From an uncultured bacterium (GTDB lineage: Bacteria; Patescibacteriota; Minisyncoccia; Phycocordibacterales; UBA6065), in the NCBI GenBank assembly GCA_963841935.1, contig CAWJEP010000001.1, forward strand, positions 141,302 to 205,301: a stretch of 64,000 bases of DNA. Direction: 5' to 3'. Numbering within the stretch: position 1 is the first letter of the stretch; each line of letters starts with the position of its first letter. The notes beneath the pieces are model-generated. The model was not told the DNA's origin, searched no databases, and worked only from the letters and a program-made list of their open reading frames with translations. Shown here piece after piece: positions 13,844 through 15,900 of this stretch. The translations under genes were made by a program, and so were the position numbers.

Positions 13844-15900
13844 ATGGCGGATATTCCAAAAGACATCTCCTCTCGCGCCGAAAAACTGAGAAAGCTCATA
13901 GCTTTCCACTCGCGTCTCTATCACACTCTCGACAAACCTGAAATAGCGGATAGCGCGTACGACGCTTTGGTCGAAGAGCTCATAGCCATCGAGAAGAAAT
14001 ATCCCTCGCTTCAAACTTCCGATTCGCCGACCCAGAGGGTCGGCGGCGTTCCGCTCAAGGAATTTCAAAAAGTCGTTCATCAAGTTCCGCAGTGGTCTTT
14101 CAACGACGCTTTTAGCGAAGAGGACATCGCGGCCTTCGACGAACGCGTGAAAAAATTTCTCTTCGCCGCGCGCGGCAAGGCAATAACTCCTTCATACGAC
14201 TGCGAACTCAAAATCGACGGATTGAAAGTCGTTCTCGAATACGAGAAAGGCGTCTTGGTCCGCGCGGCGACGCGCGGCGACGGAGAGGTTGGCGAGGACG
14301 TCACGGCAAACGTCAGAACCATCAAGACCGTTCCTCTCCGTCTTTCTCGCGACGTGTCCGTTATCGTCGAAGGCGAGATTTGGATGAGCAAAAAAAATCT
14401 CGAGAGTCTCAATAAAAAGCGCGAGAAAGACGGAGAGCCGCTTTTTGCGAACCCGAGAAATGCCGCGGCCGGTTCCATTCGCCAACGACCGAAAATGCGG
14501 CGAGCCGAAAATGTGAACTCGACCCGAAAATCGCGGCAAGCCGAAAATTAGATAATTTCGCCTACGATTTGGCGAAAACGTCGGAGAAATTTCCGCCGAC
14601 TCAAAACGAAGAACTCGAATATCTAAAAGAGCTCGGTTTTACCGTAAATGAGCATCATGCCCTAGTTCAAAATACTGCTCAAATTATGGATTATTGGCGG
14701 CTTTGGCAGAAAAAGCGCGATAGCGTGGATTATCTTCTCGACGGCATTGTCATAAAAGTGAACGAAAAAGAATCCGAGGACGCTCTCGGCTACACCGGCA
14801 AAGCCCCTCGCTGGGCTATAGCTTTCAAATTTCCAGCGGAGCAAGTGACAACCGTCGTTAAAGATATTGTTTTTCAAGTCGGCCGCACCGGCGTCATCAC
14901 GCCCGTCGCCGTTTTTTCTCCGGTCAAAGTCGCGGGTTCTACTGTCGCGCGCGCCACGCTTCACAATGAAGACGAAATCAAACGTCTCGACGTGAGAATA
15001 GGCGACACGGTTATCATTCAGAAAGCCGGCGATGTCATTCCGGACATCGTTTCCGTGGTCAAAGAGCTTCGCACGGGAAAAGAAAAAGTTTTTTCATTCC
15101 CGACGCATGTGCCGGAGTGTGGAGGTGATGGAAAAATAGAAAGGATTCCCGGACAAGCGGCGCACAGATGCGTCGATAAAAATTCTTTTACGCTTCTTCG
15201 GAGGAAACTTCGCTACGCCACATCGAAACCGGCGCTCAACATCGACGGCATGGGTCCAAAAATAATAGATGCGTTCCTCGAGCACGGTTTGATTTCGTCT
15301 CTCCCCGATATTTTTGAATTGGAAAAAGACGAAATCCTGGAACTGCCGAGGTTTGCCGAACTTTCGGCGGAAAATATCGTCAAAGCCGTTGAAGTCGCGA
15401 GAAAAACGACATTGCCGAGACTTATCACGGCGCTTTCCATTGACCACGTCGGGGAAGAGACGGCGTATTTGCTCGCCGGACATTTCAAAACGATGGAGAA
15501 GATTCGCTCCGCGACAAAAGAAGAATTGGAAAAAATAAACGGCGTTGGCCCTGTCGTCGCGGAGTCGCTTTCGAAATGGTTCGCGGGCAAGGGGAACGGA
15601 AAAATGTTGGACAGACTTCTTTCGCACCTCAAAATCGAAAAGGCCGCGCCCGCCGTCTCGGCGGGCGCGGCCAGACTCTCTGGACTTACTTTCGTCTTGA
15701 CCGGCACACTCTCATCTCTCGAAAGAAACGAAGCCGAATCCAAAATCCGCTCCCTTGGCGGCAAAGTTTCTTCATCCGTCTCCAAGAAAACTTCGTATGT
15801 CGTCGCCGGAGCGGAACCCGGCTCAAAACTCGCAAAAGCCAATGAATTAGGCGTAAAAACCCTTACGGAACAAGACTTTTTAGCTCTATTGACAAAATAG
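13844..15900 (+). pseudogene. ligA: NAD-dependent DNA ligase LigA, reading frame broken at 14486-14517
   Basis: N-terminal part (13844-14485) has the KxDG adenylation motif [10 protein letters not shown] and ends ...[23 protein letters not shown]... continues in the +2 frame from 14518 through OB, Zn-finger, HhH and BRCT regions to 15900. The 32 intervening nt are an imperfect copy of the following 33 nt. Confidence 0.75.

What the first reader, a model, noticed from the sequence alone, without database searches (positions are those of the whole stretch)
14470..14560. ligA split by a 32-bp imperfect tandem duplication
The LigA sequence runs ...[12 protein letters not shown] | (32 nt: CGACCGAAAATGCGGCGAGCCGAAAATGTGAA) | [17 protein letters not shown].... 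The inserted 32 nt are an imperfect copy (about 80% identity, 2 indels) of the following 33 nt, and shift the frame so that the adenylation half terminates at 14551. The C-terminal half (OB, Zn-finger, HhH, BRCT) has only a TTG start with no RBS. A diverged duplicate is not a simple base-call error, so an essential replication ligase appears interrupted. Possible explanations are a split two-polypeptide ligase, a compensating ATP-dependent ligase elsewhere, recoding, or a mis-assembled repeat.
Basis: seen in the sequence. Interest (0 to 1): 0.6.

Follow-up and report, generated by a model that had tools for sequence, protein, structure and literature searches.

The report
Frameshifted ligA, probably a sequence error
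The essential DNA ligase gene of this small uncultured bacterium is broken by a 32-base garbled copy of the next 36 bases, but the gene is otherwise pristine and two other genes on the contig carry one-base frameshifts, so this is most likely a flaw in the assembled sequence rather than biology.

Summary
Window 14486-14517 is a 32-nt insertion in ligA. It is absent from the two nearest relatives (91% and 90% aa identity), and none of 182 homologues has any residue at that site. It is a degenerate copy of the adjacent 36 nt (codons [12 protein letters not shown]) and far exceeds chance.

- The break lies inside the adenylation domain, between motifs III and IV, not between domains.
- "No RBS" is uninformative, because none of 19 validated gene starts has a Shine-Dalgarno motif.
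- The insert is one base short of an in-frame 33 nt. Adding one base gives an intact 685-aa LigA.
- Outside the insert ligA shows no decay: dN/dS is about 0.06 in both halves.
- Two more conserved genes in the window are each broken by a single-base indel.
- I found no slippery heptamer, no stimulatory RNA structure and no conservation of the split.

Most likely (about 0.6) the frameshift is an error of the assembled record. A real, very recent null allele is about 0.27. Recoding or a split enzyme totals under 0.1. Only reads can decide. Interest is low.

The parts
13844..14551 (+). ligA 5' ORF (235 aa): domain Ia plus the first part of the adenylation domain (motif I KIDG, motif [18 protein letters not shown]), then a 21-aa out-of-frame tail and TAG
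   Evidence: Identical to database protein P0207 (single record, NCBI+ENA, 226,187-bp contig)
14486..14517 (+). 32-nt insertion, a degenerate copy of the following 36 nt. It is one base short of an in-frame 33 nt
   Evidence: Absent from L001 and L002 and from all 182 homologues that carry the RQ-LD motif
14518..14553 (+). native copy: codons [12 protein letters not shown]. It contains CCGAAAAT twice, 17 nt apart
14416..14548 (+). zone where both the upstream frame (2) and the downstream frame (1) are open. Any -1 shift or one-base insertion here joins the two parts; to preserve the native [12 protein letters not shown] segment it must lie before 14518
14518..15900 (+). remainder of ligA in frame 1: last third of the adenylation domain (motifs IV and V), OB, HhH, BRCT. 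The first start codon is TTG at 14569
45662..45682 (-). second frameshift in the window: ABC-transporter ATPase (45246-46027) has CTGCCCGAACC where CTG CCC CGA ACC (LPRT) is needed. Adding one C restores a single ORF
58306..58330 (-). third frameshift in the window: SBP_bac_5 solute-binding protein (57127-58846). Removing one A from TCCGAAAGAAATT restores a 572-aa ORF

Best explanation
The frameshift in ligA is a defect of the deposited consensus sequence, not of the gene the cell uses. There are two sub-scenarios. (a) About 0.35: the whole 32-nt segment is a local assembly or polishing artefact. A small spurious tandem duplication in the draft, for example where two reads were joined, could then be only partly removed, because reads place the gap inconsistently within a tandem copy. 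That would leave a garbled, deletion-rich copy. (b) About 0.25: the strain really carries an in-frame 33-nt (11-codon) duplication, [11 protein letters not shown] before [12 protein letters not shown], and one base was lost from the consensus, like the one-base indels in two other genes of this contig. Shown: the insert is unique to this record, it is one base short of in-frame, the gene shows no decay, and there are two further single-base frameshifts. Inferred: the sequencing platform and the way the error arose.
For: (1) One added base in 14486-14496 gives an uninterrupted 685-aa LigA. In that frame the copy keeps PKIAASRK, and its only core substitution is synonymous (GCA to GCG). (2) All three deletions (CT, C, C) fall within the first 12 nt of the inserted copy. 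The other 2 kb of the gene has no indel against relatives at 84% nt identity except 6 nt at the 3' end. (3) There is no sign of relaxed selection. dN/dS is about 0.06 in both halves, the same as between the two intact relatives. Only 1 private change falls in columns otherwise invariant across the relatives, compared with 0-27 for those relatives. (4) Three of about 75 genes in 64 kb are broken, all by indels and none by a nonsense substitution. The other two are single-base indels in short C and A runs, and one-base repairs restore full ORFs. (5) About 20 other genes that are syntenic with L001/L002 are colinear and intact. (6) No LigA among 182 homologues has anything inserted at this site. 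(7) Provenance hint: the exact N-terminal ORF exists once, on a 226-kb contig held by NCBI and ENA but not by Logan or JGI. Its nearest relative comes from an ENA assembly with contig_NNNNN naming, the same naming as Microflora Danica MAG records returned. Nanopore-only MAG catalogues polished with one round of Medaka acknowledge residual indel errors (PMC12313526; PMC9262707).
Against: A 32-nt insertion with 4 substitutions is not a typical consensus error, which is usually a 1-nt homopolymer indel. Homopolymer statistics of the window look normal, and runs of A8/T8 inside genes are in frame, so the consensus is generally good. It is the only imperfect tandem copy in the window. The platform and coverage of the source assembly are unknown to me. 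Sub-scenario (b) requires an 11-aa insertion next to the conserved NPRNAAAGS(I/L)RQ motif, where no natural LigA has one.
Confidence: 0.6

Rival explanations
1. It is a real, very recent null allele. A local duplication of the [12 protein letters not shown] codons arose by slippage or template switching between the CCGAAAAT repeats, with error-prone synthesis, and inactivated ligA in the sequenced population or in the few cells sampled. Survival would need another ligase elsewhere in the genome, or the lineage is a dead end captured by chance.
For: The native sequence has CCGAAAAT twice, 17 nt apart, which is a slippage substrate. This genome and its relatives carry an excess of perfect inverted repeats inside genes. 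One is a window-specific 18-nt pair 49 nt upstream of the insert, where relatives show only 8 and 11 of 18 complementary bases. That pattern suggests template-switch mutagenesis. Two other genes are also frameshifted, which could reflect gene decay. The ligA 3' end lies in a 201-nt repeat created by rearrangement next to a DGR island, so the locus is recombinationally active. Replacement of LigA by an ATP-dependent ligase has a reported precedent in high-light Prochlorococcus (bioRxiv 10.1101/2020.05.11.089284).
Against: ligA shows no further lesion and keeps strong constraint, so inactivation would have to be extremely recent. A fresh duplication should be perfect, not about 20% diverged with three separate deletions. 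No second ligase is in the window: the only other K.DG hits in long ORFs lie in a 222-aa and a 139-aa protein, the latter corresponding to the Response_reg gene of L001. All three lesions are indels and none is a nonsense substitution. The other syntenic genes checked are intact.
Confidence: 0.27
2. The insert is real and ligase is made by recoding. This would be low-level -1 ribosomal frameshifting within the 133-nt zone where both frames are open (for example at CGA AAA, 14525-14530, which resembles the B. subtilis cdd CGA AAG site), or a 32-nt translational hop between the matched CCG AAA codons at 14489-14494 and 14524-14529.
For: Frame 1 stays open through the whole insert. CGA AAA is in the zero frame at 14525-14530, and CGA AAG is a published -1 site (Mejlhede et al. 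1999, cited in PMC5009743). The duplication creates matched take-off and landing codons. Very little ligase may suffice for viability (my own knowledge, not tested).
Against: There is no X XXY YYZ heptamer. The RNA of 14480-14600 folds no better than shuffles (z = -0.9). No stop codon follows the putative take-off codon. A shift at 14525, or the hop, would delete the invariant L and D of LDP or insert about 15 garbled residues next to the conserved NPRNAAAGS(I/L)RQ motif. No relative shares the arrangement, so there is no conservation. The two other frameshifts have no slippery motif in common.
Confidence: 0.06
3. It is a functional two-polypeptide LigA. The N fragment (Ia plus NTase motifs I-III) and the C fragment (NTase motifs IV-V, OB, HhH, BRCT) would be translated separately and assemble.
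For: Both ORFs are intact. The stop of the first lies 17 nt before TTG 14569, which would allow re-initiation. Genes here need no Shine-Dalgarno motif.
Against: The break is inside the catalytic fold, not at a domain boundary. A C fragment starting at TTG 14569 would lose [17 protein letters not shown], which has 10 invariant columns. All 19 validated genes start with ATG. None of the top 120 full-length hits or the fragments inspected is split at this site, and the short LigA fragments found on long contigs break at scattered other positions.
Confidence: 0.03

Closest known systems
Gene-fragmenting indel errors in long-read (Nanopore or PacBio) assemblies and MAGs (PMC9262707, PMC12007338, PMC12313526)
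   Same: An essential, highly conserved gene is split into two ORFs with perfect homology on both sides. Several frameshifts lie on one contig, all are indels, and two sit in short homopolymer runs.
   Different: The ligA lesion is a 32-nt degenerate duplication rather than a 1-nt homopolymer error. The platform of this record is not known to me.
Tandem duplication by slipped-strand mispairing or template switching, giving a frameshifted pseudogene
   Same: The extra DNA is a copy of the adjacent sequence. The native sequence contains short direct repeats (CCGAAAAT x2).
   Different: Fresh slippage products are exact copies. This one has 4 substitutions and 3 deletion events, while the rest of the gene is untouched.
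Programmed or compensatory -1 ribosomal frameshifting (dnaX A AAA AAG; B. subtilis cdd CGA AAG)
   Same: A -1 shift is what is needed. A CGA AAA lies in the zero frame within the overlap zone.
   Different: There is no canonical heptamer, no stimulatory structure or upstream SD-like element, no conservation in relatives, and the product would be garbled.
Translational bypassing (phage T4 gene 60; mitochondrial byps of Magnusiomyces)
   Same: A short non-coding gap (32 nt) is flanked by identical codons (CCG AAA).
   Different: No stop follows the take-off codon, there is no take-off hairpin, no relatives share the gap, and the predicted product loses invariant residues. The matched codons are simply a by-product of the duplication.
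Partial NAD-dependent ligases in high-light Prochlorococcus, with an ATP-dependent ligase reported to take over replication (bioRxiv 10.1101/2020.05.11.089284)
   Same: A bacterium whose ligA is not intact.
   Different: There the remnants lack whole domains, sit on mobile regions and are conserved across strains. Here the gene is complete, syntenic (pil cluster - ligA - gatCA) and undecayed, and no ATP-dependent ligase is seen in the window.

Membership tests
NAD+-dependent DNA ligase LigA | Domain set Ia - adenylation (KxDG) - OB - HhH - BRCT | tested here: met
   Pfam hits on the two ORFs together cover PF22745, PF01653 (positions 2-144 and 171-253), PF03120, PF12826/PF14520 and PF00533. 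Identity to full-length LigAs is 91%.
NAD+-dependent DNA ligase LigA | Encoded as one uninterrupted ORF | tested here: not met
   A 32-nt insert shifts the frame, and a stop follows at 14549-14551.
Programmed -1 ribosomal frameshift site | Slippery heptamer X XXY YYZ in the zero frame | tested here: not met
   None is present in 14400-14551. Only single-tRNA candidates and CGA AAA at 14525 were found.
Programmed -1 ribosomal frameshift site | Stimulatory RNA structure or SD-like element near the site | tested here: not met
   RNA of 14480-14600 has z = -0.9 against shuffles. No SD-like motif is used at any of the 19 validated starts in this genome.
Programmed -1 ribosomal frameshift site | Conservation of the two-frame arrangement in relatives | tested here: not met
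   All relatives have a single ORF without the insert.
Translational bypass (gene 60 type) | Matched take-off and landing codons | tested here: met
   CCG AAA at 14489-14494 and at 14524-14529. This is a trivial consequence of the duplication.
Translational bypass (gene 60 type) | Stop codon right after the take-off codon, and a take-off hairpin | tested here: not met
   The next codons are AAA ATG CGG. No significant structure was found.
Naturally split (two-gene) enzyme | Split at a domain boundary, with all conserved residues retained and the split conserved in relatives | tested here: not met
   The break is inside the NTase domain. Seventeen conserved residues are lost if translation starts at TTG 14569. 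No relative is split here.
Assembly or consensus indel error | Other frameshifts in conserved genes of the same contig that a one-base change repairs | tested here: met
   ABC ATPase at 45662-45682 and SBP_bac_5 at 58306-58330.
Assembly or consensus indel error | Reads disagree with the consensus at the site | not testable with these tools
   No reads are available. The contig's own record could not be retrieved.
Old pseudogene | Relaxed selection: extra lesions, raised dN/dS, changes at invariant sites | tested here: not met
   dN/dS is about 0.06 in both halves, there is one private conservative change, and the only other indel is 6 nt at the 3' end.

The most novel reading that the evidence does not exclude
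The 32-nt insert is real and fixed in a living Paceibacteria population, so the only replicative ligase gene is interrupted inside its catalytic domain. The cell would then live either on a trickle of full-length LigA made by unprogrammed or weakly programmed -1 frameshifting in the 133-nt zone where both frames are open, or on a non-LigA ligase, as has been reported for high-light Prochlorococcus.
Probability: 0.07. Interest if true: 0.6.

Novelty: not a real feature. Interest (0 to 1): 0.12.

Why it matters
If real, an interrupted replicative ligase in a minimal-genome bacterium would point to recoding or to replacement of LigA, both rare. As it stands, its main value is as a quality flag. 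This contig carries at least three frameshifted conserved genes in 64 kb, so pseudogene calls and gene-content inferences from this genome should be treated with caution.

Tried and rejected
- **Same-species sequences.**
  - Exact-protein look-ups of both ligA halves, of gatA and of P0207 found no retrievable contig.
  - A DNA pattern matching both the insert-bearing and the insert-free allele found nothing in JGI metagenome contigs.
  - The protein searches found no LigA above 91% identity other than the record's own ORF. Independent confirmation was therefore impossible.
- **Another donor for the insert.** The only significant match in the window is the adjacent copy.
- **DGR-type adenine mutagenesis as the source of the copy's differences.** Only 2 of 4 substitutions are at adenines, and the other adenines of the copied unit are unchanged (from the sequence), so this was rejected.
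- **Transcriptional slippage at the A8 run (14390-14397).** A frame-1 stop at 14413-14415 follows it, so this was rejected.
- **A systematic CCCGAA-context error.** CCCCGAA is not depleted, so this is unsupported.
- **Other imperfect tandem copies in the window.** None was found.

Full report
**What is there**

ligA lies at 13844-15900 on the + strand, between a type IV pilus/pilin cluster and a DGR island followed by gatC and gatA. The two nearest relatives have the same order, pilins - ligA - gatC - gatA.

The upstream ORF (13844-14551, 235 aa) reads ...[14 protein letters not shown]. It then runs out of frame for 21 codons to TAG at 14549-14551. The rest of Lig[18 protein letters not shown]... 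to the BRCT domain, is in the -1 frame. The first start codon in that frame is TTG at 14569.

Removing 14486-14517 (32 nt) gives a 674-aa LigA that is 91% and 90% identical to P0001 and P0002. A nucleotide alignment with those two genes (84% identity) shows one 32-nt gap at exactly this point. The only other indel is 6 nt at the very 3' end.

**The insert is a copy of its neighbour**

- The core aligns as CGA-CCGAAAAT-GCGGCGAGCCGAAAAT versus CGACCCGAAAATCGCGGCAAGCCGAAAAT.
- None of 20,000 shuffles and none of 20,000 random positions of the window reach this score. A full scan finds no other such imperfect tandem copy apart from an AT-rich spacer.
- Read in register, the copied unit is the 36 nt CTC GAC CCG AAA ATC GCG GCA AGC CGA AAA TTA GAT ([12 protein letters not shown]). 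The copy lacks CT, C and C, and has four substitutions.
- Nothing else in the window could have donated it.

1. The break is inside the adenylation (nucleotidyltransferase) domain.
   - Pfam PF01653 positions 2-144 are in the first ORF and positions 171-253 are in the second.
   - The site falls between residues 211 and 212 of E. faecalis LigA 1TAE.
   - Motifs I and III (KIDG, EGE) are upstream. Motifs IV and V (DGIVIK, AFKF) are downstream.
2. The downstream frame is open through the whole insert, back to 14416. The 32 nt are therefore one base short of an in-frame 33 nt.
   - Adding one base within 14486-14496 yields an uninterrupted 685-aa LigA reading [25 protein letters not shown].
   - In that frame the copy keeps PKIAASRK, and its only core substitution is synonymous.
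3. This genome does not use Shine-Dalgarno sequences. None of 19 starts validated by synteny has one, and all 19 use ATG. "No RBS" therefore says nothing, while TTG is unusual.
4. A protein starting at TTG 14569 would lack [17 protein letters not shown], which contains 10 columns invariant in 14 sequences.

**Is it biology?**

- The insert is unique. None of 182 homologues that carry the NPRN..RQ-LD motif has a single residue between RQ and LD.
- Short LigA fragments found on long contigs elsewhere break at scattered other positions.
- Outside the insert the gene is pristine.
  - dN/dS against both relatives is about 0.06 in each half, the same as between the two intact relatives.
  - The window's protein has one conservative private change at otherwise invariant columns, against 0-27 for the relatives.
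- Any inactivation is therefore either extremely recent or not real.

**No signal for recoding**

- There is no X XXY YYZ heptamer in the overlap zone.
- The RNA of 14480-14600 folds no better than shuffles, z = -0.9.
- The A8 run at 14390 is followed by a frame-1 stop.
- One weak lead is CGA AAA in the zero frame at 14525-14530, which resembles the B. subtilis cdd site CGA AAG (cited in PMC5009743). A shift there would give a garbled product lacking the invariant L and D.
- The matched CCG AAA codons that could serve a 32-nt hop are a by-product of the duplication, and no stop follows the take-off codon.

**The rest of the window**

About 20 other genes that are syntenic with L001 or L002 are colinear and intact. 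Two further conserved genes are frameshifted.

- An ABC-transporter ATPase (45246-46027, - strand) is split between profile positions 74 and 86. It reads CTGCCCGAACC where CTG CCC CGA ACC is needed. Adding one C restores one ORF.
- An SBP_bac_5 solute-binding protein (57127-58846, - strand) is split. Removing one A from TCCGAAAGAAATT restores a 572-aa ORF.

That makes three broken genes among about 75, all by indels and none by a nonsense substitution. This profile fits residual consensus errors better than gene decay in a streamlined genome.

**Provenance**

- The exact 235-aa ORF exists once in the 15-billion-protein collection. It sits on a 226,187-bp contig held by NCBI and ENA, but not by Logan or JGI.
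- The nearest relative comes from an ENA assembly with contig_NNNNN naming, the same naming as Microflora Danica MAG records returned.
- Nanopore-only MAG catalogues polished once with Medaka acknowledge residual indel errors (PMC12313526).
- I could not establish the platform of this record.

**Verdict**

- **Most likely (0.6):** the frameshift belongs to the record. Either the whole garbled copy is a draft duplication that polishing could not remove, or a real in-frame 33-nt duplication lost one base in the consensus.
- **Against this:** a 32-nt degenerate insertion is not a typical consensus error, and the consensus is otherwise good.
- **Real, very recent null allele (0.27):** the CCGAAAAT direct repeats and the lineage's apparent tendency to template switching make this conceivable. 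An 18-nt perfect inverted repeat lies 49 nt upstream, where relatives show only 8 and 11 of 18 complementary bases.
- **Recoding (0.06) and a split enzyme (0.03):** neither is supported.
- No second ligase is visible in the window, but only 64 of at least 226 kb could be examined.
- Reads across 14440-14600 would settle the matter.

Noticed in passing
window 15900-19980: A diversity-generating retroelement island sits between ligA and gatC; relatives have only about 8 nt there. It holds a reverse transcriptase (18996-19979, PF00078) and two variable/template repeat pairs: VR1 about 16658-16778 with TR1 about 17017-17137, and VR2 about 18013-18130 with TR2 about 18478-18595. In the aligned cores nearly all mismatches are at template adenines. 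VR1 ends target gene 15965-16783 and VR2 ends target gene 17468-18160.
   Followed up: partly
window 15742-15942 and 17139-17339: A 201-nt direct repeat (95% identity) covers the last 159 nt of ligA plus 42 nt downstream, including a TATACAAT/TATATAAT promoter-like box. The second copy follows TR1 directly and precedes the second DGR target gene. The present ligA 3' end (...[12 protein letters not shown]) therefore seems to have been exchanged during modular duplication or insertion of the DGR cassette.
   Followed up: partly
window 45246-46027 (-), site 45662-45682: The ABC-transporter ATPase of a MacB-like operon is split by a one-base deletion in a C run. Adding one C restores the ORF.
   Followed up: yes
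window 57127-58846 (-), site 58306-58330: An SBP_bac_5 solute-binding protein is split by a one-base insertion (GAAAGAA). Removing one A restores a 572-aa ORF.
   Followed up: yes
window 14334-14351/14420-14437; 61088-61105/61159-61176; 21292-21323; 15642-15672; 26115-26168: There is an excess of perfect inverted repeats of 14-18 nt inside protein-coding genes. My estimate of the chance expectation for a repeat of 18 nt or more within 300 nt in 64 kb is about 3e-4. The ligA pair is specific to this genome, with 8 and 11 of 18 complementary bases in relatives, and was achieved by synonymous changes plus E-to-D. Relatives have similar repeats at other positions. This could reflect quasi-palindrome correction by template switching.
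   Followed up: partly
window 25904-25935; L001 17796-17827; L002 12648-12679: A perfect 32-nt palindrome, GCGGCGCTTTTCGGCG/CGCCGAAAAGCGCCGC, lies inside the uppP/bacA gene. It is conserved base for base in all three genomes although they are only about 84% identical across ligA.
   Followed up: no
window 18973-18982: A G10 homopolymer lies 14 nt upstream of the DGR reverse-transcriptase start codon. It is the only run longer than 8 in the window.
   Followed up: no
proteins P0138, P0148, P0154, P0155, P0166 and P0070 (other assemblies): Several Patescibacteria LigA fragments on long contigs all break just after ...YDIA(L/M), about 19 residues downstream of the site studied here. They continue with similar odd sequence (LIGREEEKPISDESPLCPRGRNGFLLRYC...). 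P0070 has an in-frame 23-aa insertion at the same spot. This may be a lineage-specific insertion or intervening sequence in ligA.
   Followed up: no
L001 18254-19500: In the nearest relative's contig (ENA contig_63793) the DEAD-box helicase is called as a 285-aa fragment plus an antisense ORF. It is 395-396 aa in L002 and in the window. That assembly therefore also seems to hold a frameshift.
   Followed up: no
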